Assembly (NCBI GenBank): GCA_036679645.1
Contig: JAZDCY010000025.1
Coordinates: 1-49,289 of the forward strand
From: Gemmatimonadota bacterium
GTDB taxonomy: Bacteria; Gemmatimonadota; Gemmatimonadetes; Gemmatimonadales; GWC2-71-9
Length of the DNA stretch: 49,289 nucleotides
Direction of reading: 5' to 3'
Shown: piece by piece, positions 1-47,958 of the stretch
Layout of the letters: each line of letters starts with the position of its first letter
Position numbering within the stretch: position 1 is the stretch's first letter
Made by a program: the position numbers and the translations under genes
Notes under the pieces: model-generated
The model's input: the letters and a program-made list of their open reading frames with translations, nothing else
What the model was told of the DNA's origin: nothing
Database searches by the model: none

Positions 1-29
1 TCTCCGTGCCGTACGGCAACGTCACCGTA

Positions 30-130
30 TCAGGAACGCGGTCCGTGCACCCGGATTGCCAGCTCCAGCACCGACTCCCAACCGCGAAGGTGCCTCGCCG
101 TTTCCCACGAACAGTCCAGGTACCGCGGCG
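30..130 (-). pseudogene. 3' fragment of the regulator at 6789-7742 (also at 2144-2229 and 4720-4820)
   Basis: Translates RYLDCSWETARHLRGWESVLELAIRVHGPRS*, matching RYLGCSWETARHLRGW near 7060-7110. Confidence 0.8.
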
Positions 131-161
131 TCACGGGCCGACTAGAGGCGCAGCGCCGACA

Positions 162-200
162 TTGCCGTTGGGCAACGTCACTGCCATTGCCGTCTGGCAA
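162..200. promoter_or_regulatory. Pair of TTGCC-N4-GGCAA palindromes 25 bp apart (a third at 6-19), with an overlapping minus-strand sigma54-like motif at 172-186
   Basis: TTGCCgttgGGCAA (162-175) and TTGCCgtctGGCAA (187-200); minus strand reads TGGCAG-tgacg-TTGC; same layout in other units. Confidence 0.6.
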
Positions 201-245
201 CCGGATGGGCTCCCGTGCCGGCGTTCTATGGACACTCTTCATCCC

Positions 246-331
246 ATGGAACTACCGAAGGTCGGGGTGGTGCAATCACGAGCACGGACACCGTGGATTT
301 CTTGCTCGCCGTCCTGGGCGTCAGGCGCTGA
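246..331 (+). pseudogene. Internally deleted thioredoxin-like gene (~454 bp missing relative to 2359-2901)
   Basis: ATG-ELPK (cf. GTG-QLPK at 2359) joined out of frame to GRGGAITSTDTVDFLLAVLGVRR* (cf. GRGGAITRTETVDSMLAALGVVRP*). Confidence 0.8.
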
Positions 332-369
332 TTGGCGAGCTGTTTCACCTCACACGCACGGAGGTCAAG

Positions 370-576
370 ATGAAACGCACACTCACGCGCACTATCCGTC
401 TTGCCGCGATCCTGGGGGTCGTCGCGGCACTCAGCTTCGGTGTCCAGCAAGCCGTGGCATCGTCGGCTACGACGAACTCCACCTCATGTACCTGTACATT
501 CCCCAACAATGGTGAATGTACCGATTGCTGTCAGGGGCCGGGGTTCTGCACTACGGCGGGGTTCTGCCTCTGCTAG
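370..576 (+). CDS. Secreted 8-Cys defensin-like peptide precursor, copy 1 (68 aa)
   Basis: GGAGG RBS; Sec-type signal ending QQAVA; core CTCTFPNNGECTDCCQGPGFCTTAGFCLC; two paralogs with identical Cys spacing. Confidence 0.9.
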   Translation: MKRTLTRTIRLAAILGVVAALSFGVQQAVASSATTNSTSCTCTFPNNGECTDCCQGPGFCTTAGFCLC

Positions 577-585
577 AGTATTTCT

Positions 586-628
586 GACAGAGAGGGGCCG
601 GCTTCCACGGAAATCGGCCCCTCTTGTC
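586..628. terminator. Hairpin between convergent peptide and lipoprotein genes
   Basis: AGAGGGGCCG...CGGCCCCTCT stem; equivalent hairpins in the other units. Confidence 0.7.
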
Positions 629-645
629 TGTCACTCTCTCAGGTT

Positions 646-2019
646 CTAGCGGACGCGCCCGGGCGTCAGCGAGTCAATTCTCTCGAAGTCCCGCGCGGAG
701 GTCTTCGTCCGTTGGAGCAGTATCTGCCCGCCAAACAACCCGAGCGATTTCCGCGCGATGGAGTAGTACCCCTCACCATCGTTGAAACGCCCACGCTGGA
801 GATCGAACACAGGACTGATACTCTGCGCACAGTACTTCTCGTCCCCTCCCAACGGATCGGAGATGCTGCGAGCGGCGATGGACGTGAACACGTCCAGAAT
901 CCGCTCGCGGGGAATCCGCGGGATGGAATTATTATAGTTTCCGGGCCGCATGAAGGGGACCGTGGTGAGATCCACCGTGTCCGCGACGAAGAAGATGGCT
1001 CCGAGGTCCAGGCGGAAAATCATGCCGCGGCCGAGGAACGATAGGAACTCCTCGACGATCGTCATCGTATTAGGCACGGCTGGATTATCGACGTCGGCCG
1101 AGCCGACGGACTCGAAACGCGCGTTTGCGAGGTTCGGGAGCCGACTATCCACCGCGCTGTGGTCAATGGCGTCGGTGGCGATCACGGCCGCGGTTCCTGG
1201 TGCCAACGGATACTGGGTCCCGGTGCCCGGAAGCCGAATGAGGTTTGGCGACCACAGCCCGGCCGAATCCGTCTGCCACTGCACCGTCAGCGAGCAGGGA
1301 AAAAAGCCCCGAGCTCCTTGCCCGAAGTCTCGGAGCCACAGAGGTCCGAACCCCACGAGCTTCCCGTCGAGATAGATCGTCGTATCGGCGTTGTTGTACA
1401 GCTCCAAGTAAGTTGCGTTCACGTACGAGTTGTCGTTGATGAAGGGCCAGCTGAAGTAGATCTCACTGATCACGAGCGAGCCGCGCCGCCCGGCGCTCGC
1501 GTTCAGCGCCACAGTCCGTTCCGGAGCCCGCAGCGTCACCACACCCCCTCCCGCAAACCCCGTCACGTCCTTGAGCTCCGGCCGCAACCGCGCTCGCTCC
1601 TCGGCCGTCAGCAGCCGCAACACCGACACGTCCCACGTCCCCGGCAAGAGGTCCGTGAACCGTACCTCCCCTGCCGAGTCCGTCACGCCGGCCACCTGAT
1701 CCGACGAGCCCCGGCGGCTCGCCTCCACTTGCCCGTCCGCCAGCGGGCCCTGGCTCCACCCGAGATCCTGGAACAGCGGCACGTCGCTGGAACTCTGTGC
1801 CACGGCCCGCGCCGTCACGACGAGCGCCGCCCGCTGCACGTTCCCGCCCGTAGTGTCCCGGCCCGAGGTGTCACGGGGCATCGTGCCAGTGGTATCGCTT
1901 CCTACGGAATCAGGGGGAGGAGGCGTGACCAGCCGCAACTCGGGGTTGCAGGCCGCGAACAGCCCGCCCGCTGCAACCGCGAGCCCGGCCAGCAGGAGGC
2001 CGGTACGGCATTGAGACAT
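646..2019 (-). CDS. DUF4876-like (lamin-tail-like) lipoprotein, copy 1 (457 aa)
   Basis: GGAGG before ATG 2019; lipobox LFAAC; motifs LVISEIYF, YLELYNNADTTIYLDG, YPLAPG, ATDAIDH, DVDNPAVPN; N-terminal prealbumin/carboxypeptidase-regulatory-like segment (VTDSAGEVRFTDLLPGTW). Confidence 0.8.
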   Translation of the reverse strand: MSQCRTGLLLAGLAVAAGGLFAACNPELRLVTPPPPDSVGSDTTGTMPRDTSGRDTTGGNVQRAALVVTARAVAQSSSDVPLFQDLGWSQGPLADGQVEASRRGSSDQVAGVTDSAGEVRFTDLLPGTWDVSVLRLLTAEERARLRPELKDVTGFAGGGVVTLRAPERTVALNASAGRRGSLVISEIYFSWPFINDNSYVNATYLELYNNADTTIYLDGKLVGFGPLWLRDFGQGARGFFPCSLTVQWQTDSAGLWSPNLIRLPGTGTQYPLAPGTAAVIATDAIDHSAVDSRLPNLANARFESVGSADVDNPAVPNTMTIVEEFLSFLGRGMIFRLDLGAIFFVADTVDLTTVPFMRPGNYNNSIPRIPRERILDVFTSIAARSISDPLGGDEKYCAQSISPVFDLQRGRFNDGEGYYSIARKSLGLFGGQILLQRTKTSARDFERIDSLTPGRVR

Positions 2020-2273
2020 GATTGCCTCCGGAACGACGTGGAGCTTCCGTATACTGATACCGCCGCATCGCCGGCCGCAAGAGGTACCGGCCCGCCGTCC
2101 GGCGCTCCGCGCGCTCTCCGTGCCGTACGGCAACGTCACCGCATCAGGAACGCGGTCCGTGCACCCGGATTGCCAGTTCTAGCACGGATTCCCAACCACG
2201 AAGGCGCCTCGCCGTTTGCCACGAACAGCGGAGGTGGCGCCGCGCCACCGGTCAAGAAGACCGTGCAGCCACG

Positions 2274-2312
2274 TTGCCGGTGAGCAATGTCGCTGCCGTT
2301 GCCGCCCGGCAA
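2274..2312. promoter_or_regulatory. Palindrome pair TTGCCggtgAGCAA / TTGCCgcccGGCAA (third at 2120-2133) with minus-strand sigma54-like CGGCAG-cgaca-TTGC
   Basis: Motif and 25-bp spacing are kept although the flank 2230-2273 is unrelated to the other units. Confidence 0.6.
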
Positions 2313-2358
2313 CCGGACGGGCTCACGTGCCGGCCCATTCCTGACATCTTGTCGTATC

Positions 2359-2901
2359 GTGCAGCTGCCAAAACTTCCCGCCCGCATGCTCGCGCGCGTC
2401 TTCGTCATGGCGGCCCTCCTCGGTGCCACCGGGCTCGTGGTCGTACTCGCGGCGCAGAGCCGGGAGTTGCGCGAGCAGGTTCGGCACCTACGCCGCGAGC
2501 GGCGGATTCTGCACGATGGAGTCGTCGTGCCCGCTTTCCGCACGACGGGGCGGCAGCTACTCATGATCCTCAACGCTGCATGCCTGTATTGCCGTGAGAC
2601 GCTACCGCATTGGAAAAACGTCCTCCGCCGCATCCGCGCCGACACCGTGGCGATTGAGCCTTACGCCGTCTCGCTCGACCCCGACAGTGTGGCGCGGGCG
2701 TACCTGACCGAGCACGCGTTCGACGTTCCCGTGATCCGGTTCCCGAACGAGCGGACCGCCGCGGTCTACCGCGCCATCGGTGTGCCGATCACCGTCGTGA
2801 TCGGTGCCGGCGGGCAGGTGCTCTACGGTCGGGGCGGAGCGATCACGAGAACGGAAACCGTGGATTCCATGCTCGCCGCCCTGGGTGTCGTCAGGCCCTG
2901 A
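2359..2901 (+). CDS. Membrane-anchored thioredoxin-fold protein (TlpA/ResA/MauD-like), CLYC active site
   Basis: N-terminal TM helix, CxxC, AVSLD, cis-Pro loop GVPITVVI; GTG start inferred from the ATG of the 246 paralog. Confidence 0.85.
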   Translation: MQLPKLPARMLARVFVMAALLGATGLVVVLAAQSRELREQVRHLRRERRILHDGVVVPAFRTTGRQLLMILNAACLYCRETLPHWKNVLRRIRADTVAIEPYAVSLDPDSVARAYLTEHAFDVPVIRFPNERTAAVYRAIGVPITVVIGAGGQVLYGRGGAITRTETVDSMLAALGVVRP

Positions 2902-2939
2902 TTGGCGAGCTGTTTCACATCACACGCACGGAGGTCAAC

Positions 2940-3146
2940 ATGAAACGCACACTCGCACGCACGGTCCGTCTGGCCGCAATCCTGGGGGTCGTCGGGGCTC
3001 TCAGCTTCGGTGTCCAGCAAGCCGTGGCCTCGTCGGCTACGACGAACTCCACCTCATGTACCTGTACGTTCCCTAATAACAGCGAATGCGATGACTGCTG
3101 CGGGGGAGATGGGTTCTGCCCTACGGCGGGGTTCTGCCTCTGCTAG
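2940..3146 (+). CDS. Secreted 8-Cys defensin-like peptide precursor, copy 2
   Basis: GGAGG RBS; signal peptide; core CTCTFPNNSECDDCCGGDGFCPTAGFCLC. Confidence 0.9.
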   Translation: MKRTLARTVRLAAILGVVGALSFGVQQAVASSATTNSTSCTCTFPNNSECDDCCGGDGFCPTAGFCLC

Positions 3147-3160
3147 AGTGTTTCTGAGAG

Positions 3161-3198
3161 GAGCGGCCGATTTCCGCTGAGGTGAAAATCGGCCGCTC
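3161..3198. terminator. Hairpin between convergent genes
   Basis: GAGCGGCCGATTT...AAATCGGCCGCTC. Confidence 0.7.
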
Positions 3199-3221
3199 TT
3201 GACTCTCAGTCTTTCCAGATT

Positions 3222-4595
3222 CTATGGGACCCGCCCGGGCGTCAGCGAGTCAACCCGTTCGAAATCCCGGGCCGAGGTCTTCGTGCGCAGCAGCAGGACG
3301 CGCCCGTCGAAGACGCCGAGGCTTTTCCGCGCGACGGAGTAGTACCCCTCACCATCATTGAAACGCCCACGCTGGAAATCGAACACGGGACTGATACTCT
3401 GCGCGCAGTACTTCTCGTCTCCTCCCAACGGATCCGAGATGCTGCGAGCGGCGATGGACGTGAACACGTCCAGAATCCGCTCGCGGGGAATGCGCGGAAT
3501 GGTGTTGTTGTAGGTTCCGGGACGCATCCAGGGCACCGCCGTCAGGTTCACAGGGTCCGCGACGAAGAAGATGGACCCGGTTGACACGCGGAAAATCACG
3601 CCGCGGCCCAAGAAGGTCAGAAACTCCTGTACGACGATGGTTGCGTTCGGCACCGAGGGATTGTCCACATCGGTCGAGCCAATCGACTCGAACCGCGCGT
3701 TCGTGAGGTTCGGTAGCCGGGCGTCCACCGCGCTGTGGTCAATGGCGTCGGTCGCTATCACGGCAGCGGCTCCAGGGGCCAGCGGATACTGCGTCCCGCC
3801 GCCGGGAAGCCTGATCAGGTTCGGCGACCACAGCCCGGCCGAATCGGTCTGCCACTGTACCGTGAGCGAACAGGGAAAGAACCCGCGCTGTGTTTGTCCG
3901 AAGTCTCGGAGCCAGGCAGGTCCCTTCCCCACGAGCTTCCCGTCGAGATAGATCGTGGTGTCGCTATTGTTGTAGAGTTCCAGATACGTGGCGTTCACGT
4001 ACGAGTTGTCGTTGATGAAGGGCCAGCTAAAGTAGATCTCGCTGATCACCAGCGAGCCGCGCCGCCCAGCGATCGCAAGCAGCGGTACCGTCCTTTCCGG
4101 AGCTCGCAGCGTCGCGTCCCTCGCCCCCGCGAACCCCGTCACGTCCCGCAGCTCCGGCCGCAGCCGCGCTCGCTCCTCCGGCGTCAGCAGCCGCAGCACC
4201 GATACGTCCCACGTCCCCGGCAAGAGTTCGGCGAACCGTACCTGCCCCGCCGAGTCCGTGACGCCGGCCACCTGATCCGAGGAGGCCCGGCGGCTAGCCT
4301 CCACCTGCCCGCCCACCAACGGCCCCTCGCTCCACCCCAGATCCTGGAGTAGCTGAAAGTCGCTGGAACTCTGCGCCACGATCCTTGCCGTCACGACGAG
4401 CGTCGCCCGCTGCACGTTCCCGCCCGTCGTGTCCTGGCTCGACGTATCACCGGGCATCGTGCCCGTCGTATCGCTGCTAAGCGAATCTGGGGGTGGAGGC
4501 GTGACTAGCCGCAGCTCGGGGTTACAGGCCGCCAACAACCCGCCCGCGGCAACCGCGAGCCCGGCCAGCAGGAGGCCGGTACGGCATTGAGACAT
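3222..4595 (-). CDS. DUF4876-like lipoprotein, copy 2 (457 aa)
   Basis: Close paralog of 646-2019; lipobox LLAAC. Confidence 0.8.
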   Translation of the reverse strand: MSQCRTGLLLAGLAVAAGGLLAACNPELRLVTPPPPDSLSSDTTGTMPGDTSSQDTTGGNVQRATLVVTARIVAQSSSDFQLLQDLGWSEGPLVGGQVEASRRASSDQVAGVTDSAGQVRFAELLPGTWDVSVLRLLTPEERARLRPELRDVTGFAGARDATLRAPERTVPLLAIAGRRGSLVISEIYFSWPFINDNSYVNATYLELYNNSDTTIYLDGKLVGKGPAWLRDFGQTQRGFFPCSLTVQWQTDSAGLWSPNLIRLPGGGTQYPLAPGAAAVIATDAIDHSAVDARLPNLTNARFESIGSTDVDNPSVPNATIVVQEFLTFLGRGVIFRVSTGSIFFVADPVNLTAVPWMRPGTYNNTIPRIPRERILDVFTSIAARSISDPLGGDEKYCAQSISPVFDFQRGRFNDGEGYYSVARKSLGVFDGRVLLLRTKTSARDFERVDSLTPGRVP

Positions 4596-4851
4596 GATTG
4601 CCTCCGGAACGACGTGGAGCTTCCGCATACTGATACCGTCGCATCGCCGGCCGCAAGGGGTAGCCGCACGTCGTCGGGCGCCCCGTGCGGTCTCCGTGCC
4701 GTACGGCAACGTCACCGCATCAGGAACGCGGTCCGCGCACCCGGATTGCCAGCTCCAGCACTGACTCCCAACCGCGCAGGCATCTTGCCGTTTCCCACGA
4801 ACAGTCCAGGTACCGCGGCCTCACAGGCCGACTAGAGGCGCAGCGCCGACA

Positions 4852-4890
4852 TTGCCGTTGGGCAACGTCACTGCCATTGCCGCCTGGCAA
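4852..4890. promoter_or_regulatory. Palindrome pair TTGCCgttgGGCAA / TTGCCgcctGGCAA (third at 4696-4709) with sigma54-like motif
   Basis: Same layout as 162-200. Confidence 0.6.
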
Positions 4891-4936
4891 CCGGACGGGC
4901 TCACGTGCCGGCCCATTCCTGACATCTTGTCGTATA

Positions 4937-5480
4937 GTGCAGCTGCCCAAACTTCCCGCCCGCATGCTCACGCGCGTCTTCGTCTTGGCGGCGCTGCTTG
5001 GTGGTACCGGACTCGTGGTCGTACTCGCGGCGCAGAGCCGGGAGTTGCGCGAGCAGGTTCGGCACCTACGCCGCGAGCGGCGGATTCTGCACGATGGAGT
5101 CGTCGTGCCCGCTTTCCGCACGACGCGGGCGCCAGTTGCTCATGATCTTCAACGCCGCATGCCCGTATTGCCTCGAGACGCTGCCGTATTGGAAGAACGT
5201 CGTCCGACGCATCCGCGCCAACACCGTGACGATTGAGCCTTACGCAGTCTCGCTCGACCCCGACAGTGTGGCGCGGGCGTACCTGACCGAGCACGCGTTC
5301 GACGTTCCCGCGATCCGGTTCCCGAACGAGCGGACCGCCGCCGTCTACCGCGCCATCGGTGTGCCGATCACTGTCGTGATCGGAGCCGGGGGGCAAGTGC
5401 TCTACGGCCGGGGCGGAGCGATCACGAGAACGGAAACAGTGGATTCCCTACTCGCCGTGCTGGGCATAGTCAGGCCCTGA
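4937..5480 (+). pseudogene. Thioredoxin-like gene, CPYC site, +1 frameshift near 5126 (may be a sequencing error)
   Basis: acgacg-C-gggcgccag versus acgacg-gggcggcag in the 2359 copy; 544 nt versus 543 nt. Confidence 0.75.
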
Positions 5481-5523
5481 CGGGCGCGTCCATCACCCTC
5501 AACTTCCTTATACGGAGGTTATC

Positions 5524-5730
5524 ATGAAACGTACACTCACCCGCACGCTTCGTCTGGTCGCGGTTCTGGGGGTTCTCGCGGCGCTCAGCTTCGGCGTCCA
5601 GGAAGCCGTGGCATCGTCGGCGACGCAGGACTCCGCCACGTGTCACTGTCAGTTCCCCGACAACAGTCCGTGCCTCGGGTGCTGTGGCGGACCCGGCTTC
5701 TGCACGACCGCAAACATCTGCATTTGCTAG
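5524..5730 (+). CDS. Secreted 8-Cys defensin-like peptide precursor, copy 3 (most divergent)
   Basis: GGAGG RBS; core CHCQFPDNSPCLGCCGGPGFCTTANICIC; all 8 Cys kept. Confidence 0.9.
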   Translation: MKRTLTRTLRLVAVLGVLAALSFGVQEAVASSATQDSATCHCQFPDNSPCLGCCGGPGFCTTANICIC

Positions 5731-5745
5731 GACGTACTCCCAGGA

Positions 5746-5781
5746 GAGCGGGGCCGACTCCGGTGGAAATCGGCCCCGCTC
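5746..5781. terminator. Hairpin between convergent genes
   Basis: GAGCGGGGCCGA...TCGGCCCCGCTC. Confidence 0.7.
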
Positions 5782-5802
5782 GACTCTCAGTCTTTGCAGA
5801 TT

Positions 5803-6993
5803 CTAGGGGACGCGCCCATCTTCGTGCGTTGCAGCAGTATCTGCCCGCCAAACAACCCGAGTGACTTGCGCGCGATAGCGTAGAAGTCGTCGCCGTCGGC
5901 GAAGCGTCCTTCTTGCAGGTCAAAAACCTCGTTGATGAAGTTCTCGCAGTACTTCGCACCCCCGACCCCGTCCGTGATTCGTCGCGTGGCCTTGGATGAG
6001 AAGACGTCGAGGATTGCCTGCCGAGGGATCCGCGGGATGGAATTATTGTATTGTCCGGGCCGCATCCAGGGCACCGTCGTGAGATCCACCGTATCCGCCA
6101 CAAAATAGATGGTACCTAGGGTATTGCTGAAGATGATTCCCCGGCCGAGAAACGTTAGGAACTCTTGCACCACGATAGTGGCGTTTGGCACAGACGGATT
6201 GTCCACGTCGGCCGAGCCGATTGACTCGAACCGCGCGTTGGCAAGGTTCGGGAGCCGACTATCCACCGTGCTGTGGTCAATGGCGTCGGTGGCGATCACG
6301 GCCGCTGCCCCGGGCGCCAGGGGATACTGTGTCCCGCTGCCGGGAAGCCGGAGCAGTTCGGGTGACCAAAGCCCTAGCGAGTCGTTTTGCCACTGCTGCG
6401 TCAACGAGCAGGGAAAGAATCCGCGTTGAGTGTCCCCAAAATCCCAGAACCAGAATGGTCCCCTTCCGACGAGCTTTCCGTCCAGATAGATCGTGGTATC
6501 GCTGTTGTTGTACAGTTCGATATAGGTGGCGTTGAAGTACACGTTATCGTTGATGAAGGGCCAGGTGAAGAAGATCTCGCTGATCACGAGCGAGCCGCGC
6601 CGCCCGGCGCTCGCGTTCAACGCCACCGTCCGTTCCGGAGCCCGCAGCGTCACCACCCCCCCTCCCGCAAACCCCGTCACGTCCTTAAGCTCCCGCCTCC
6701 ACTTGCCCGTCCGCCAGCGGGCCCTGGCTCCACCCCAGATCCTGGAACAGCGGCACGTCGCTGGAACTCTGTGCCACGGCCCGCGCCGTCACGACGAGCG
6801 CCGCCCGCTGCACGTTCCCACCCGTCGTGTCCTGGCCTGACGTATCACCGGGCATCGTGCCCGTCGTATCGCTGCTAACCGAATCTGGGGGTGGAGGCGT
6901 GACCAGCCGCAGCTCGGGGTTACAGGCCGCGAACAGCCCGCCCGCGGCAACCGCGAGCCCGGCCAGCAGGAGACCGGTACGGCATTGGGACAT
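5803..6993 (-). pseudogene. DUF4876-like lipoprotein, copy 3, broken by ~140-bp (near 6693) and ~40-bp (near 5817) deletions
   Basis: Alignment by eye to copy 1; N-terminus lies in ORF 6685-7263 and the body in ORF 5787-6680. Confidence 0.8.
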
Positions 6994-7742
6994 GATCGCC
7001 TCCGGGACGGCGTGAAGCTTCCGCATACTGATACCGTCGCATCGCCGGCCGCAAGGGGTACCCAACCGCGAAGGTGCCTCGCCGTTTCCCACGAACAGCC
7101 CAAATACCGCCGCGCCCGAGTATGCCACGTTCGTGGGTTGGTGGTGTCTGTACCACTCCAGCCCGCGGCGCGCAGGGCCATCCGGGCCACGATGCGCCAG
7201 TCCCGGGCGTTCCATCGGCTGAGCCGCGCGAGCCGCCTGCTGTAGTAGGAGCTGGAGCGACATGATGACGGAGTCGAACTCACGACGGCCGCGAATTGTT
7301 CCGCCAGCAAGCCTCCCAGCTCGTCCGAGCGGAGTCGCAATGCGACGAACCGGGCCAGCACCGTCGGAGGCGGAACGGGACGCGCGTCGACCGCGCGAAG
7401 GACGCGCTCGGGCCGAAGCGGAACGCCCACGGGCAGATCATCTCGGGCGAGTACGTGGCTCCAGTCGGGTATGCAGTCGATCAGATGCTCGAGCAAGGCG
7501 GGCCGGGAAGACTGGAACAGACACGGCACGATCCAAGGCCATTGGTGACGTCGAACCACCAGCGTCGCGGTGCCGGCAAGTGCGTCCGGTGCACTCCCCC
7601 TTCCATCGGCACACAGAATCGTGCCAACTTCGGGCTGGCCTTGAGCTGCGTGGGCTGCCGCGGCCAGCGACCGGTATGGAGGGGTCATCACGTACACGTT
7701 GGCCTGCGAGGGCCACGGAACCGAAAGCGGCGGGGCGCTCAT
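6789..7742 (-). CDS. Putative transcriptional regulator with a degenerate AraC-like C-terminal HTH; native stop removed by a ~104-bp deletion at 7060
   Basis: GGAG RBS before ATG 7742; SYYSRRLARLSRWNARDWRIVARM...RTWHTRARRYLGCS resembles a two-HTH AraC region; the intact 3' end survives in the duplicated fragments. Confidence 0.45.
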   Translation of the reverse strand: MSAPPLSVPWPSQANVYVMTPPYRSLAAAAHAAQGQPEVGTILCADGRGSAPDALAGTATLVVRRHQWPWIVPCLFQSSRPALLEHLIDCIPDWSHVLARDDLPVGVPLRPERVLRAVDARPVPPPTVLARFVALRLRSDELGGLLAEQFAAVVSSTPSSCRSSSYYSRRLARLSRWNARDWRIVARMALRAAGWSGTDTTNPRTWHTRARRYLGCSWETARHLRGWVPLAAGDATVSVCGSFTPSRRRSCPNAVPVSCWPGSRLPRAGCSRPVTPSCGWSRLHPQIRLAAIRRARCPVIRQARTRRVGTCSGRRSS

Positions 7743-21845: not shown

Positions 21846-23474
<1,629 letters not shown>

Positions 23475-23475
23475 C

Positions 23476-24267
23476 TTGAGCCAGCACGTCGAGTTCACCT
23501 GCGCCGGACGCACCGACGTCGGCATCGTGCGAGCCGGGAACGAGGACAACTACCTCATGATCCCGGAGCGGGCGCTCTTCATTGTCGCCGACGGTATGGG
23601 CGGTCACGCCGCAGGTGAAGTCGCCAGCGAGATGGCGGTGCGGATCATCTCGGAGGAACTCGGCGACGTGCGCGGGGCTGCCGAAGTCGATGCCGCCGAG
23701 CGCATGCGCGAGGCCATCCGGCAGGCGAACGCCACGATTTTCGAGCGGACCCTCACGGAGCACGACAAGCGCGGCATGGGGACAACCGCCACGGCGCTCG
23801 TGCTCAACGGGCAGCGGTATCTGATTGGGCAGGTGGGCGATAGCCGGGCGTACCTGCTGCGCGACAAGCAACTCACCCAGCTCACCAAGGATCACTCCTA
23901 CGTACAGGAGCAGGTCGACGCCGGATACCTCAGTCCCGAGGAAGCCCGCACTCATCCCTACAGCAACGTCATCACCCGGTGTGTCGGGGCAAACAACGAT
24001 GTGGCACCCGATACGTACGCGGGGACAGCGCACAGGGGCGATCTGTTTCTCCTCGCATCTGACGGACTGACGGGTATGATCGATGATCCGGAATTGCACA
24101 CCATCCTGCTGGCCGACACGAATCCGCAGGCACTGGCCGATCGCCTCATCGAGGAAGCGAATCAGCAGGGCGGGCTCGACAACATCACGGTGGTCATCGT
24201 GCGCGTGGACAAGGTCGAGGCCGCTCGCGCCGACGACCGTCCGACTCTGGCGACCGCCGAGGAGTGA
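23476..24267 (+). CDS. PP2C-family Ser/Thr phosphatase (Stp1/IreP type)
   Basis: TDVGIVRAGNED, VADGMGGHAAGEVAS, VGDSRAY, ASDGL, GGLDNIT; TTG start inferred. Confidence 0.93.
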   Translation: MSQHVEFTCAGRTDVGIVRAGNEDNYLMIPERALFIVADGMGGHAAGEVASEMAVRIISEELGDVRGAAEVDAAERMREAIRQANATIFERTLTEHDKRGMGTTATALVLNGQRYLIGQVGDSRAYLLRDKQLTQLTKDHSYVQEQVDAGYLSPEEARTHPYSNVITRCVGANNDVAPDTYAGTAHRGDLFLLASDGLTGMIDDPELHTILLADTNPQALADRLIEEANQQGGLDNITVVIVRVDKVEAARADDRPTLATAEE

Positions 24268-43459: not shown

Positions 43460-45252
43460 TCGAGCTGCAGCACCGCGAGGAACGCTTCCTGGGGGATCTC
43501 GACCGATCCCACCTGCTTCATGCGTTTCTTCCCCTCCCGCTGCTTCTCGAGCAGCTTGCGTTTCCGCGTGATGTCACCGCCGTAGCACTTGGCGGTGACG
43601 TTCTTCCGCAGCGCTTTCACCGTCTGTCGTGCGATCACCTTGGAACCGATCGCCGCCTGGATGATGACCTCGAACATCTGCCGTGGGATCAATTCTTTCA
43701 ACTTTTCGGCGATCTTGCGTCCCCAGTCATAGGCCTTGTCGCGGTGGATGATCACGCTGAAGGCGTCCACTGGATCTCCGTTGATCAGCATGTCGAGCTT
43801 TACCAGGGCGCTGGTGCGGTAGCGCGAGAACTCGTAGTCCATGGCGGCGTAGCCGCGGCTGATCGTCTTGAGGCGATCGTAAAAATCGATGATGATCTCG
43901 GCGAGCGGAAACTCCCACTCGAACTGCACACGACTCGGATCGAGGTAGTGCATACCCGTGTACTCACCGCGCCGCTCCTGCCCGAGCTGCATGATGGCGC
44001 CGATGTATTCCGACGGTGATGTGATGCGCGCCTTCACGTACGGTTCCTCGACGCGATCGACGCCCGTCCCGGTCGGCATCTTGGTCGGGTTCTCGATCAC
44101 GACCATCGAGCCGTCCGTCTGTTGCACGTGGTACTCGACGTTCGGCACCGTACTGATCAGGTCGAGATCGAATTCCCGCTCCAGTCGCTCGCGCACGATA
44201 TCCATGTGCAGGAGTCCCAGGAACCCGCAGCGGAACCCAAAACCAAGGGCGACGGATGTTTCGGGCTCGTAGTGGAGAGAGCCGTCGTTCAGCTTCAGCT
44301 TGGCGAGCGCGTCACGCAGCTCCACATACTGGTTCGAGTCGGTCGGGTAGAGGCCCGCGAAGACCATGGGTTTGATGTCGCGATACCCCGGGAGCACGTC
44401 GGCCGTGTTGTCTGCATCGAGCACGGTATCACCGGCGCGGGTCTCCTCGACACCCCGGACGTTGGCTACGACGTACCCGACCTCGCCCGCCTCGAGGGTT
44501 TCCGTGCGGTGCCGGCCAAGCTGCAGGTACCCGATCTCCGCCACCTCGTACACATCCTCGGGGTGTGAACCAAACGCGATGTTCATACCCTTGGCCAGGG
44601 TGCCGTCCACGACCCGGATGCTGGGGATGGCGCCGCGGTACCGGTCGTAGTAGGAGTCGAAGATCAGCGCGCGCAGCGGGGCATCCGCACTGCCCCCCGG
44701 CGGCGGGACCCGTACTATGATCTCCTCGAGTAGGTCCCCGACACCGGTCCCGTCCTTGGCGGAGACGTGCACGATCTCCTCAGGGGCGATGTGAATGAGG
44801 TCGTGCAACTCCTTTGCCCGACGGTCCGGCTCGGCTGCGGGGAGATCGATCTTGTTGAGAACCGGGATGACCTCGAGATTTGCGTCGAGAGCCAGGAAGA
44901 GGTTGCTCACAGTCTGCGCCTGGACCCCCTGACTTGCGTCGACTACGAGCAGCGCCCCTTCGCAGGCGGCCAGCGAGCGGGACACCTCGTAGGTGAAATC
45001 GACGTGTCCCGGCGTATCGATGAGGTTCAGTTCGTACTCGGCACCGTCCCGGGCGGTGTAGCTCATGCGGACCGCGTTGAGCTTGATCGTAATGCCCCGT
45101 TCGCGCTCCAGGTCCATCGTATCGAGGACCTGGTCCCGCATCTGCCGCTGTTGCAGCGTCCCGGTGGCCTCCAGCAGCCTGTCGGCCAACGTCGACTTCC
45201 CGTGGTCGATGTGGGCCACGATGCAGAAGTTGCGGATGCGGTTCTGTCGCAT
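43456..45252 (-). CDS. lepA: Elongation factor 4
   Basis: [41 protein letters not shown]. Confidence 0.99.
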
Positions 45253-45325
45253 GGCGGGGAATATAAGGCCGCCCGGCGCAGCGGACGCTCGCCGCGTCCG
45301 GTCGTTCGTCCTATCTTTGCGACTG

Positions 45326-47958
45326 ATGTCGGAGATCCTCGAGCAACTCAAGGCCGCTCTTACCGGCCGCTACAATGTCGAGCGTGAGCTGGGTGCGGGC
45401 GGCATGGCGATCGTCTATCTGGCCGAGGACGTGAAGCACCACCGGCAGGTGGCCGTGAAGGTGCTGCGACCGGAGCTGGCCGCGGCGATCGGTGCCGAGC
45501 GATTCCTGCGGGAGATTGAAATCTCAGCGCGTCTCCAACACCCGCACATCCTCGCGGTTTACGATTCCGGCGAGGCGGGCGGGTTTCTCTACTACGTCAT
45601 GCCGTATGTAGAAGGGGAATCCTTGCGCGACCGACTGGATCGCGATCAACAGCTTCCCCTGGATGACGCGCTGCGACTGGCCCAAGAGGTCGCCGATGCC
45701 CTGAGCTACGCACACAACCATGACGTCGTTCATCGCGATATCAAGCCGGAAAACATCCTTCTCAGCTCGGGGCACGCGCTGGTCGCCGATTTCGGCATCG
45801 CGCGCGCCATCACGGCAGCCGGTGGTGACCGCCTCACTCAGACCGGTCTCTCGATTGGCACACCCGCGTACATGAGCCCCGAGCAGGCCGCGGGTGAGGC
45901 AACCGTCGACGGGCGCAGCGACATTTACTCACTCGGCTGCGTGCTCTATGAGATGCTCGCTGGGGAGCCACCGCACACCGGGCCCAACGCTCAGGCGATT
46001 ATCGCAAAGCGCCTTACCGAACCCGTGCGCTCCCTGCGAGAGCGCGCGAGAGCGTCCCAGCAGCTACCGACGAGGCGCTGGCCCGGGCCCTCGCTCGCAT
46101 ACCGGCAGATCGCTACGCGACGGCCGCCGAGTTCGCGAGCGCGCTCAAGCGGGAGGACACGCCACCACGCCCACGGAGCGCCGAGTTGCCCAAGGCGCTT
46201 CGCATCGGCGTGTTGGCCGCGGTGATCGCGGTGATCGCTGTGATCGGATTCGGCTCCTACGTGGCGATCACGGGCCAGGGCGAGTCGTCAGCCGACCGAA
46301 CGCTCCCCCGCCTGGTGGTGCTACCGTTCGAGAACCTGGGTGCCGCCGATAACGAGTACTTCGCGGCCGGGATCACGGACGAGGTCACGGCACGTCTCGC
46401 CGGCCTCAATGGGCTCATCGTGATCGCGCGGCAGAGCGCGATGCAGTACAAAGGCAGCGACAAGACCCCTCAGGAGATTGGCGGCGAGCTCGATGCGCAG
46501 TACCTGCTCGAGGCGACGGTGAGCTGGCAGCGAGGTGCGGACGGCTCGAGTCGCGTCCGCATTCGACCGCAGCTCATTCGAGCCAGCGACGCCGGCCACG
46601 TCTGGGCGGATGTCTACGATGAGGACATGACCGAAGTCTTCGCTGTACAAACCGCCATCGCGAACAGGGTTGTCGATGCGCTCGGCGTGGCGCTGCTCGC
46701 GCCCGAAGAGCAATCGCTCGCGGCTCGTCCCACGGACAATCTCGAAGCGTATGATCTCTTCCTGCGCGCGAATGGCGTGTGGTCCGACCTGTTTACTAGG
46801 CGGGGCGGGGAGATCGCGCTACCGCTCCTCGAACGGGCAGTCGAGCTCGATCCGGATTTTGCTCTGGCCCATGCGTCGATTGGCGAGACCCATCGGCAGA
46901 TGTATCACTATTTCTTCGATCGTACCGAAGCGCGGCTGGGTCGGGCGAAAGAATCGATCGACCGGGCGATCGCCATCGATCCTACGCTCGTCGAGGCTCG
47001 ACTCGCGCTCGCGAATTACTACTACAGCAGATTCGACTACGATCGGGCACTCGCGGAGCTGGAGCCGATTCGTCAAGCGCATCCGAACCACAGTGAGATA
47101 CTACTCATGAGGGCCTCGGTGCTACGCCGGCGCGGCAACGTCGAGGAGTCCATTGCAGACTACGAGGCCGGCGTGCGAGTGAACCCGCGATCGGCCTCGC
47201 TCGCGCTGAACCTGGCGCTCTCGTATATGCTCGTGCGCGAGTACGCCGCGGCCGCACGCGAGCTAGATCGTGCCATCTCGCTCAGTCCAGAAGTGGCCCG
47301 CCAATACAAGTACAAGCTCCAGCTCTCGCTGCAATGGCGCGGGGACACCGCCGCCGCACGGGAAACCATGGCGCAGGTGGAGCGTCTCGGTTTTCTCACG
47401 GCGCCCGATGTGGTTCCCGCAGCCATGTTCGTCTACTGGCTGGGTGGCCGGTTCGACGACGCGATCAGTCTCCTGGACCGGCTGCCGCGGGACTTCGCAT
47501 CAGATATTCAGTATTGGTACCTGCCCAAGGAGCTGCTGTACGCCGAGACGTTGCACCGGATGGGGAGGACCGAAGCCGCCCGCGCCCATTTCGAATCCGC
47601 CAGCGTCGCGCTCGAAGCCCTCGTCCGGTCTGACACGACCGAAGCTCGGTATGCGCGTTCCTTGGGAATCGCGTATGCTCGGCTCGGTCGGCGGGAGGAA
47701 GCAATCCGCATGGCGCGGTTGGGGGTCGACTTGCTCCCGGTAGAGCGAGAAGCGCTGCGCGGCGTGTACGGCGTTGAGGATCTCGCGGCGGTGTACACCA
47801 TCGTTGGAGAGCACGGGGCGGCGATCGACCGACTAGAGTACTTGCTCTCCATTCCAAGCATGATGTCAGTCCCACTTCTTCGCATTGACCCACGATGGGA
47901 TGCCCTGAGGGACCAGCCGCGCTTCCAGCGCATGGTCGAGGGCAGCGACGACGGCTGA
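45326..47958 (+). CDS. Ser/Thr protein kinase - TM - TolB-like - TPR fusion, with an apparent single-base frameshift near 46040
   Basis: [27 protein letters not shown]; shifted frame gives [21 protein letters not shown] and runs into ORF 46186-47958 (VVLPFENL, TPRs, DPRWDALR). Confidence 0.88.

What the first reader, a model, noticed from the sequence alone, without database searches (positions are those of the whole stretch)
370..5730. Three secreted peptides with a cis-defensin (CSalphabeta) signature plus one extra Cys pair
Seen: all three cores follow C-x-C-x7-C-x2-C-C-x5-C-x5-C-x-C and end on the last Cys. This contains CxxxC, GxC (GFC in all three) and terminal CxC. Signal peptides are conserved while inter-Cys residues vary (NGECTDCCQGP, NSECDDCCGGD, NSPCLGCCGGP). 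Known: CxxxC...GxC...CxC defines the cysteine-stabilised alpha-beta fold of insect, plant and fungal defensins; bacterial examples are few. Unlike typical antimicrobial defensins, these cores have no Lys or Arg and are acidic. Inference: they may be ligands, enzyme inhibitors or metal binders rather than membrane-lytic peptides.
Basis: partly seen in the sequence, partly recalled or inferred. Interest (0 to 1): 0.8.

Follow-up and report, generated by a model that had tools for sequence, protein, structure and literature searches.

The report
Defensin-fold peptides paired with transporter lids
These three genes encode small, acidic, eight-cysteine peptides predicted to be exported and to fold like scorpion and insect defensins, and they sit in a recurring bacterial gene set with a likely disulfide-forming enzyme and an outer-membrane importer whose surface "lid" protein likely recognises each peptide variant, which would be a new job for this fold.

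Summary
Observation confirmed: three 68-aa precursors with signal-peptide-like N-termini and C-x-C-x7-C-x2-C-C-x5-C-x5-C-x-C acidic cores. They are recent paralogs in a 2.57-kb tandem repeat. The fold reading holds. AlphaFold gives a helix plus hairpin, the family profile hits ergtoxin and chlorotoxin (same 8-Cys spacing), and 7 of 8 six-Cys relatives lose cysteines as predicted pairs. Each peptide follows a membrane-anchored CxxC oxidoreductase and flanks a DUF4876 lipoprotein (a predicted TonB-transporter lid); a TonB-dependent transporter and a DUF6850 barrel complete the cassette. It recurs patchily across the phylum (relatives labelled Gemmatimonadota), and a peptide profile hits 1,121 clusters. 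In near-identical strains peptide and adjacent lid swap together while the transporter stays 97% identical; old lids are kept, and some genomes keep only the receptor trio. Best reading: secreted, then recaptured through a cognate lid, likely carrying a metal. Toxin-immunity and kin-signal remain strong rivals; binding is untested. Paper searches found no description. This scan noted the same system earlier on other DNA (e1-3055937). Some apparent breaks in window copies may be assembly artefacts.

The parts
370..576 (+). Peptide 1 precursor, 68 aa: signal-like residues 1-30, 8-Cys core, net -2
   Evidence: model
2940..3146 (+). Peptide 2 precursor, 68 aa, net -4
5524..5730 (+). Peptide 3 precursor, 68 aa, net -2, one His
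246..331 (+). Remnant of oxidoreductase copy 1: start joined to its 3' end, about 500 nt missing in this assembly
   Evidence: whether the break is real is not settled
2386..2901 (+). Oxidoreductase copy 2: N-terminal membrane anchor, thioredoxin fold, CLYC; 45 nt shorter than the C24 copy at 2547/2548
   Evidence: a contig of run X1 carries a version of the missing segment
4964..5480 (+). Oxidoreductase copy 3 (CPYC), frameshifted in this assembly at 5124/5125 (44 nt missing against C24)
646..2019 (-). DUF4876 lipoprotein (lid 1), 457 aa, lipobox FAAC, open frame
   Evidence: Pfam; model pLDDT 93.5; Foldseek to BT1938, 4q1z, E 1e-21
3222..4595 (-). DUF4876 lipoprotein (lid 2), 457 aa, open frame, 86% identical to lid 1
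5787..6993 (-). DUF4876 lipoprotein (lid 3), broken in this assembly at 6693/6694 (140 nt missing) and 5817/5818 (40 nt missing)
   Evidence: a contig of run X1 that matches lid 3 with no differences over 481 nt runs on into intact-type sequence at 5818
585..634 (.). Hairpin between peptide 1 and lid 1, likely a two-way terminator
   Evidence: z -3.05; not called by the terminator scan
3154..3209 (.). Hairpin between peptide 2 and lid 2
   Evidence: z -4.18
5743..5787 (.). Hairpin between peptide 3 and lid 3
   Evidence: z -2.76
1..7115 (.). Tandem array of ~2.57-kb units (oxidoreductase, peptide, convergent lid). It runs off the contig start; contig C24 begins with a partial lid, a truncated peptide, an intact oxidoreductase, a TonB-dependent transporter and a DUF6850 barrel, and is likely its continuation
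   Evidence: the join of C19 and C24 is inferred

Best explanation
Each peptide is predicted to be exported by Sec and likely folded into a four-disulfide CS-alpha-beta knot by the oxidoreductase encoded just upstream, and it is likely bound outside the cell by its own neighbouring DUF4876 lid and taken back in through the cassette's TonB-dependent transporter, most likely as a strain-private carrier of a scarce metal. Shown: the genes, their order and linkage, the 8-Cys scaffold, the net negative charge, joint turnover of peptide and lid, and receptor-only loci. Predicted: the fold (about 0.9) and its connectivity C1-C4, C2-C6, C3-C7, C5-C8. Inferred: the oxidoreductase serves the peptide (about 0.8); the lid is the allele-specific partner (about 0.7); the peptide is imported (about 0.55); the cargo is a metal (weakest step). 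On this reading extra lids let a strain use other strains' peptides, and receptor-only strains are cheaters. How the peptide crosses the outer membrane outward is unknown; DUF6850 is one candidate.
For: Fold: AF2 helix 18-24 plus strands, core pLDDT about 85; profile hits ergtoxin E 6.6e-4 and chlorotoxin E 0.007 with all eight Cys aligned; the top four Foldseek rows are scorpion peptides, all weak; 7 of 8 six-Cys relatives lose a predicted pair. Oxidoreductase link: invariant CxxC and cis-Pro site; among 23 fully flanked loci chosen by the lid, 17 have the oxidoreductase, 16 of these an intact peptide and 1 a frameshifted one, while 0 of the 6 without it have an intact peptide; lids in peptide-less loci keep their own Cys pair (7 of 7). 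Lid link: over 23 loci peptide distance tracks lid distance after allowing for the transporter (partial rho 0.28, permutation p 0.002), less so the reverse (0.15, p 0.06), and not the oxidoreductase (-0.05). L132 against L136: transporter 97%, flank 98%, oxidoreductase 87%, but non-Cys core 35% and adjacent lid C-domain 65%; L136 and L134 keep a 97-98% copy of L132's lid as a second lid. L041 has lost oxidoreductase and peptide and keeps a 99% lid. Oxidoreductase-peptide-lid units are amplified before one transporter in L111/L112 too. Import: DUF4876 lids are predicted to cap TonB transporters leaving a ~20 A opening (bioRxiv 2023.03.17.533168); the Bacteroidota loci are induced up to 215-fold by iron depletion (PMC10434189); one peptide-less locus lies beside a CobW-type GTPase.
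Against: No non-Cys residue is conserved, His is present in only 102 of 247 cores, and net charge runs from -6 to +3 among 14 close alleles, which is hard to square with a fixed metal site. No conserved inner-membrane importer or reductase was seen among 30 hand-picked neighbours scanned. The strain-swap evidence comes from one lineage, and the Mantel test does not remove shared ancestry. In the window's own array the pairing is not clean: C24's peptide resembles peptide 3, but its convergent lid resembles lids 1 and 2 (85-88%) more than lid 3 (74%). Several loci have more lids than peptides, and 4 of 17 peptide-bearing genomes have no lid match; there the peptide and oxidoreductase sit beside beta-propeller proteins or unrelated genes. 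Bacteroidales homologues have the trio with no peptide seen. Iron regulation is known only for distant homologues. pN/pS within the window shows no positive selection.
Confidence: 0.38

Rival explanations
1. Polymorphic microcin-like toxin and immunity. The folded peptide is released and enters related cells through their TonB-dependent transporter to kill them; the cognate lid protects the producer by catching the peptide at the transporter mouth, and extra lids are orphan immunity genes.
For: Joint peptide-lid swaps, retained orphan lids and loss of the peptide with retention of the lid are the pattern of toxin-immunity loci (own knowledge). Cores are far more variable than signals among close alleles (0.89 against 0.26 bits). 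Cassettes are patchy (22 of 301 genomes) and some lie by insertion sequences, HipA or PIN genes. No conserved metal ligands. Class II microcins use TonB-dependent receptors (recalled).
Against: The producer encodes the transporter in the same locus. Lids of other families are needed for uptake, not for blocking it (bioRxiv 2023.03.17.533168). I saw no small membrane immunity gene in the short gaps (not searched systematically). The tested myxobacterial class II defensin xanthusin-1 showed no antibacterial activity on three test strains (PMC11561630).
Confidence: 0.27
2. Kin or density signal. The peptide is a pheromone whose allele is read by the cognate lid and transporter and relayed to a regulator, as in plant SCR/SRK or bacterial pherotypes.
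For: Linked, co-varying ligand and receptor alleles. An ECF sigma factor and zf-HC2 anti-sigma precede the transporter in one genus, and a weak AraC-type HTH match flanks the C97 cassette (E 4e-4). Two members weakly match SLR1-BP (E 0.005).
Against: No regulator is conserved across loci. The transporter shows no STN signalling domain in Pfam. Receptor-only genomes are harder to explain.
Confidence: 0.18
3. Periplasmic accessory. The peptide never leaves the periplasm and acts as a plug, chaperone or acceptor on the inner side of the transporter or barrel; its covariation with the lid reflects linkage only.
For: Sec export ends in the periplasm and no dedicated exporter is evident. The peptide-oxidoreductase pair also occurs without the lid.
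Against: The transporter is 97% conserved where the peptide core changes by about half or more. The oxidoreductase is equally close to the peptide yet does not covary with it.
Confidence: 0.1
4. Metallothionein-like binder. The cysteines stay reduced, kept so by a ResA/StoA-type reductase, and bind metal directly.
For: The oxidoreductase's closest solved relatives include ResA and StoA, which are reductases (recalled). 20% of core residues are Cys.
Against: 235 of 247 cores have exactly 8 Cys, and 7 of 8 six-Cys variants lose predicted disulfide partners together. The spacing matches four-disulfide scorpion peptides. The best NCBIfam match of the intact enzyme is MauD, below cutoff (E 6e-7).
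Confidence: 0.05

Closest known systems
Four-disulfide scorpion CS-alpha-beta peptides: chlorotoxin (1chl), ergtoxin (1ne5), insectotoxin I5A (1sis)
   Same: Eight-Cys spacing C..C..CxxCC..GxC..CxC aligns fully with the family profile; predicted helix-on-hairpin; peptide 2 shares the stretch CDDCCGG with chlorotoxin as printed.
   Different: Bacterial, net negative and almost without Lys/Arg; encoded with an oxidoreductase and a TonB transporter. No ion-channel activity is implied. Similarity is mostly Cys and Gly (E 6.6e-4 at best), so convergence is not excluded.
Bacterial cis-defensins: classes I-V of Cardoso et al. 2024 (PMC11561630) and actifensins (NCBIfam NF038042)
   Same: Signal peptide plus CxxxC, GxC, CxC core. 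Classes II-IV have acidic N-terminal tails. Class III has a fourth disulfide from Cys1, as the related subtypes here are predicted to have.
   Different: In the window's subtype the extra Cys lies inside the helix motif (CxxCC), unlike the three class III sequences in Table S4. The main text has no mention of Gemmatimonadota, TonB, thioredoxin or operon. The window peptides do not hit NF038042; one relative does at E 0.05, below cutoff.
BT1938/BT1939 and BT3632/BT3633 (DUF4876 lid plus TonB-dependent transporter) of Bacteroides thetaiotaomicron; PG1019-22 of Porphyromonas gingivalis
   Same: The lid is homologous in sequence (E 7.6e-24) and predicted structure (E 1e-21); it lies with a transporter and a DUF6850 barrel.
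   Different: Here an oxidoreductase and an 8-Cys peptide are added, lids are amplified, and the lid has an invariant Cys pair not seen in the BT1938 alignment. The substrate of the Bacteroides pairs is unknown.
Hemophore HasA/HasR, and siderophore-receptor pairs such as pyoverdine/FpvA (recalled)
   Same: Works like: a secreted self-made carrier recaptured by a TonB-dependent receptor, with strain-specific variants and receptor-only cheaters.
   Different: The carrier would be a 4-kDa disulfide knot with no conserved ligand set, specificity would sit in a swappable lid, and no type I exporter or biosynthetic enzymes are present.
Class IIa microcins (e.g. MccV) (recalled)
   Same: Small disulfide-bonded peptides that reach related cells through TonB-dependent receptors.
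   Different: No double-glycine leader or peptidase ABC exporter, no inner-membrane immunity gene seen, and the receptor lies in the producer's own cassette.

Membership tests
cis-defensin / CS-alpha-beta superfamily | CxxxC and terminal CxC (CSH motif) with C1...C2x3C3...C4...C5xC6 framework | tested here: met
   Invariant in the alignments; 148 of 148 short top hits; framework wording from the PMC5234102 abstract in the listing
cis-defensin / CS-alpha-beta superfamily | gamma-core GxC-x(3-9)-C | tested here: met
   GFC-x5-C in all three
cis-defensin / CS-alpha-beta superfamily | alpha-helix packed on a two-stranded beta-sheet | tested here: met
   AF2 helix 18-24, strand 35-37 and a two-residue strand before it, core pLDDT about 85, pTM 0.44; structural hits are scorpion peptides but weak (Foldseek E 3.6 or worse; Z 2.6, rmsd 1.4, 28 aligned). 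A prediction only.
cis-defensin / CS-alpha-beta superfamily | Parallel disulfides from the helix to the last strand | not testable with these tools
   Model coordinates were not readable; pairwise Cys loss fits the expected pairing in 7 of 8 cases
cis-defensin / CS-alpha-beta superfamily | Match to a Pfam defensin or scorpion-toxin family above cutoff | tested here: inconclusive
   Window peptides: no Pfam match. Of 35 members: AtDEF-like best E 0.0011, Gamma-thionin 4 members, Toxin_17 2 members, all weak
Chlorotoxin/ergtoxin-type four-disulfide peptides | Extra Cys pair: N-terminal Cys and the Cys inside CxxCC | tested here: met
   All eight Cys align; 4 six-Cys relatives lose the N-terminal and the mobile Cys together; the C1-C4 bond of chlorotoxin is recalled
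Chlorotoxin/ergtoxin-type four-disulfide peptides | Basic surface and ion-channel activity; scorpion venom origin | tested here: not met
   No Lys/Arg in the window cores and bacterial context; activity itself untested. Not filed as a member.
Bacterial defensin class III (Cardoso 2024) | Fourth disulfide from Cys1 to a Cys in the hairpin (Cx2CxC end), Polyangiaceae | tested here: not met
   Table S4 sequences differ from the window's CxxCC spacing
Actinodefensins (NF038042) | HMM score above 65 bits | tested here: not met
   No match for the window peptides; one relative 14 bits
Cationic antimicrobial defensins | Net positive charge | tested here: not met
   234 of 247 cores net negative; Lys+Arg 2.4% of core residues
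DUF4876 lid / non-SusC TonB-dependent transporter pair | DUF4876 lipoprotein encoded with a plug-and-barrel transporter | tested here: met
   PF16215 above cutoff for lids 1 and 2; plug and barrel on C24; adjacency direct on C7, C8 and C97, inferred across the contig gap for this array
DUF4876 lid / non-SusC TonB-dependent transporter pair | Lid binds the outer face of the transporter and is surface exposed | not tested
   Predicted for the Bacteroides pairs in bioRxiv 2023.03.17.533168; not run here
Class IIa microcin system | Double-glycine leader, peptidase ABC exporter, membrane immunity protein | tested here: not met
   Sec-type signal; no such exporter among the cassette genes or the 30 neighbours scanned. 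Defining features recalled.
Iron capture system (ICS) of Capnocytophaga | SusC/SusD-type core | tested here: not met
   The IcsC and IcsD homologues are annotated SusC/RagA and RagB (PMC5429918); a cassette transporter scores 58 bits against a SusC cutoff of 368

The most novel reading that the evidence does not exclude
Gemmatimonadota use a very large library of defensin-fold mini-proteins as genetically encoded, strain-specific keys: each is folded by its own oxidoreductase, secreted and recaptured through one shared TonB transporter fitted with swappable lids, so that the defensin/scorpion-toxin scaffold serves bacteria as a private metal carrier or kin code and DUF4876 lids are peptide receptors.
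Probability: 0.45. Interest if true: 0.88.

Novelty: new variant of a known kind. Interest (0 to 1): 0.72.

Why it matters
It supplies a concrete, cheap-to-make candidate ligand for DUF4876-lidded TonB transporters, whose substrates are unknown although their Bacteroidota homologues are strongly iron-induced. It widens the bacterial cis-defensins from the 74 listed in PMC11561630 to a family whose profile hits 1,121 clusters, including the chlorotoxin-type eight-Cys spacing, which bears on where and how often the CS-alpha-beta fold arose. It gives bacterial defensin-fold peptides a gene context from which a function can be tested: natural cognate and non-cognate peptide-lid pairs exist in near-identical strains. 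A dedicated folding enzyme for four-disulfide knots may also help bacterial production of such peptides.

Tried and rejected
Complex prediction of peptide with lid was not available, so binding was not modelled. Peptide-only searches miss the family: 1 of 41 relatives (own genome only), 4 proteins, 1 locus in genome contigs; the neighbours found it. ESM Atlas gave only sub-0.9 leads for peptide 2. VIA-align found nothing above Z 2.6, which is uninformative for 38 residues. No lid relative in viral contigs. No RNA holder listed. No sigma-70-type promoter, and none of the three hairpins was called as a terminator. My recalled link between DUF4876 and the Capnocytophaga ICS was rejected; the original ICS paper is not held. 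Positive selection within the window was not found. The ORF upstream of lid 3 (about 7070-7740, minus) has no Pfam or NCBIfam match and no similarity to the L057 neighbour, so I do not call it a regulator. The transporter tree is a quick tree only and the oxidoreductase tree did not finish. Whether the breaks in oxidoreductase copies 1 and 3 and at 6693 are real stays open. Paper searches that returned no description of this cassette: 'DUF4876' (5 papers); TonB-dependent/disulfide/secreted peptide/Gemmatimonad/cysteine-rich (2 plant reviews); BT1938, BT3632, PG1019, DUF6850, BF9343_2981 (15 papers, 12 listed, none with DUF6850); chlorotoxin+bacterial+origin+cis-defensin+evolution (0); defensin-like+bacteria+TonB-dependent receptor+gene cluster+thioredoxin (0); defensin+Gemmatimonad+cysteine+signal peptide (2 unrelated by title and abstract). 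Subscription papers, such as Dash et al. on bacterial CS-alpha-beta peptides (seen only as cited), were not searchable.
Full report
Observation. Their spacing is Cx1Cx7Cx2CCx5Cx5Cx1C, the mature parts have no Lys/Arg, and net charge is -2, -4 and -2. They are 71-88% identical and lie in a ~2.57-kb tandem repeat. Core pN/pS is 0.21-0.40, so they are conserved as proteins and show no positive selection here. A post-hoc 8-Cys pattern found 6 ORF ends in the genome, all family members, and none in three simulated genomes. A hairpin follows each peptide (z -2.8 to -4.2).

Surroundings. Each repeat unit holds a thioredoxin-fold protein with an N-terminal membrane anchor, then the peptide, then a convergent DUF4876 lipoprotein. 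The window is the start of contig C19. Contig C24 begins with a partial lid, a truncated peptide, an intact oxidoreductase, a TonB-dependent transporter and a DUF6850 barrel, so it is likely the continuation; the join is inferred. Three more cassettes with the same gene types lie on C7, C8 and C97. In this assembly oxidoreductase copies 1 and 3 and lid 3 are broken and copy 2 is 45 nt short. Contigs of run X1, which may be the source sample, contradict two of these gaps: one matches lid 3 exactly for 481 nt and runs on into intact-type sequence at 5818, and one carries, before 2548, a version of the missing oxidoreductase segment that differs from C24's. The breaks may therefore be assembly artefacts.

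Distribution. The lid matches in 22 of 301 genomes of the phylum, two of them weakly. The oxidoreductase profile matches in 21 of 401. The peptide profile matches in 17 of 301 (partly circular, since it was built from these loci). All 17 are among the oxidoreductase genomes and 13 also have a lid. Named relatives are Gemmatimonadales or Gemmatimonadota, so the host phylum is inferred. A lid-based metagenome scan gave 68 loci, many with a peptide beside the lid. Among 23 fully flanked loci chosen by the lid, 17 have the oxidoreductase; 16 of these have an intact peptide and one a frameshifted one; none of the other 6 has an intact peptide (four further loci in that table were chosen by other means and are left out of this count). 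Counted from the enzyme, 35 of 48 copies with enough downstream sequence have a peptide within 350 nt; several of the 13 misses have a broken peptide or one elsewhere in the locus. Four of five lid-bearing genomes without the enzyme, 96-100% complete, have no peptide match, and the fifth keeps only a signal remnant. In 4 of the 17 peptide genomes no lid was found, and there the pair sits by beta-propeller proteins or unrelated genes.

The family. I collected 62 distinct precursors from loci, after dropping six ORFs by eye, one false hit and two without Cx3C; the filter itself asked for at least 4 Cys near the end. Their profile hits 1,121 clusters at 50% identity with E up to 0.001, 77 of them up to 1e-10. 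Of the best 150, 148 are short precursors: all have CxxxC and terminal CxC, 143 have 8 Cys and 139 are net negative. The other two are repeat proteins from a moth and a spider. Over 247 distinct sequences, 235 have 8 Cys and 234 are net negative, and 102 contain His. One Cys is mobile: inside the helix motif (CxxCC, the window's subtype), or just before the terminal CxC (CCxC or CxCxC).

Fold. AlphaFold with 39 sequences gives a helix at 18-24 and a C-terminal hairpin, with core pLDDT about 85 and pTM 0.44. The subtype profile hits ergtoxin (E 6.6e-4), chlorotoxin (E 0.007) and insect defensin variants, with all eight Cys aligned to the scorpion peptides. Structure searches rank scorpion peptides first but below significance. 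Chlorotoxin has four disulfides (PMC12846725, passages). Its C1-C4, C2-C6, C3-C7, C5-C8 pairing is recalled and is inferred for the window peptides; I could not read it from the model. Independent support: of 8 six-Cys relatives, 3 lose the second Cys with the GxC Cys and 4 lose the first Cys with the mobile Cys, each a predicted pair; one does not fit. This favours disulfides over metal thiolates.

Partners. The oxidoreductase has invariant CxxC (CPYC in 17 of 48) and a conserved Pro. It resembles MauD, StoA and ResA, all below family cutoffs, so oxidase, isomerase or reductase activity cannot be told from sequence. It travels with the peptide and not with the lid, whose own Cys pair persists in 7 of 7 lids from enzyme-less loci. 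The lid model (pLDDT 93.5) matches BT1938. Price et al. (bioRxiv 2023.03.17.533168, whole text read; its supplements are closed) predict that DUF4876 proteins cap their transporters with a ~20 A opening, and report no phenotype or substrate for them. The Bacteroidota loci are induced by iron depletion, 21-215-fold for PG1019-22, 38-128-fold for BT3625-33 and 3.5-7.4-fold for BT1933-39 (PMC10434189, passages).

Which partner does the peptide track? Over 23 loci, peptide distance correlates with lid distance after allowing for the transporter (0.28, permutation p 0.002), more weakly the other way (0.15, p 0.06), and not with the oxidoreductase; kin are not independent, so these p values overstate. 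The clearest case is one lineage. L132 and L136 share 97% in the transporter, 98% in a flanking gene and 87% in the oxidoreductase, but only 35% in non-Cys core and 65% in the adjacent lid's C-domain. L136 and L134 keep a 97-98% copy of L132's lid as a second lid. L041 keeps that lid at 99% and has lost enzyme and peptide. Among 14 close alleles the signal averages 0.26 bits of variation, the non-Cys core 0.89 and the first loop 1.38, and charge spans -6 to +3. L111/L112 show the same amplification of enzyme-peptide-lid units before one transporter as this window. Against a strict one-to-one rule: several loci have more lids than peptides, and in the window's array the C24 peptide resembles peptide 3 while its convergent lid resembles lids 1 and 2.

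Mechanism. The data best fit allele-specific recognition of a folded peptide by a lid on a shared transporter. Lids of other families help uptake, so I commit to secretion and recapture, with a metal as the likeliest cargo because of the acidic bias, the iron induction of homologues and one CobW-type neighbour. I put this whole chain at 0.38, since no metal ligand is conserved and no inner-membrane partner recurs. Toxin-immunity (0.27) explains the swaps and orphan lids equally well. A kin signal (0.18) has an ECF sigma/anti-sigma pair in one genus only. Binding was not modelled or measured.

Comparison and novelty. Bacterial cis-defensins are known. Cardoso et al. (PMC11561630; parts 1-2 of 7, passages and a supplement search) list 74 in five classes from three phyla, none from this phylum and with no gene context. 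Their class III has a fourth pair but another spacing. Actifensins were seen as a search listing only. The paper searches listed under Tried and rejected found no description of the cassette; subscription journals are not covered. This scan's own notes hold the same system on another genome (e1-3055937) and a parallel one with a DUF4249 lid (e1-1425195); these are unchecked AI notes, and I had reached the reading before seeing them. Verdict: a real, selected family of predicted cis-defensin-fold peptides in an apparently unpublished five-gene outer-membrane cassette; a new variant of a known kind, interest 0.72.

Noticed in passing
window 2547/2548, 5124/5125, 5817/5818, 6693/6694, 259/260: Short deletions in repeat copies of this assembly; contigs of run X1 contradict two of them, so pseudogene calls in this array are unsafe.
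   Followed up: partly
window about 7070-7740 (-), with 3' remnants near 30-130, 2190-2245 and 4767-4820: An ORF without Pfam or NCBIfam match precedes lid 3; its 3' end is copied into every repeat unit, marking the repeat's origin.
   Followed up: partly
L094 6252-9517, L096 5964-11125, L099 7013-10536: The oxidoreductase-peptide pair (CxCxC subtype) lies beside six-bladed beta-propeller proteins and carboxypeptidase-regulatory or plug-domain proteins instead of a lid: a second partner class.
   Followed up: partly
L091 7048-9904, L092 8486-11427: Oxidoreductase-peptide pairs followed by Ig-plus-Kelch-propeller proteins, in a genome that also has lid cassettes.
   Followed up: no
L053 2251-3332; L096 11049-11255; L210 7795-7995: Other small secreted-looking Cys peptides with different spacings near propeller, thioredoxin-like or TonB genes.
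   Followed up: no
L165, L166, L167, L172, L174: Distant, Bacteroidales-like (my label) transporter-lid-barrel operons with no peptide seen are followed by an S46 peptidase (Pfam-checked in L165), which hints at peptide uptake or only at an insertion site.
   Followed up: partly
L100 3768-10810: A peptide-less transporter-lid-barrel locus lies beside a CobW-type GTPase.
   Followed up: no
L039 10907-12263; also L041, L132, L134, L136: An ECF sigma factor and zf-HC2 anti-sigma precede the transporter in one genus.
   Followed up: partly
G000 C90 4204-4473: An ORF end with a twice-repeated Cys-Asp-rich unit, unrelated to this family.
   Followed up: no
window 21846-24267 and 45065-47958: A triple-FHA protein next to a PP2C phosphatase, and a Ser/Thr kinase next to a TPR protein; the rest of the window is housekeeping (UvrA, PEPCK, FtsEX, LepA, ABC-2 exporter).
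   Followed up: no
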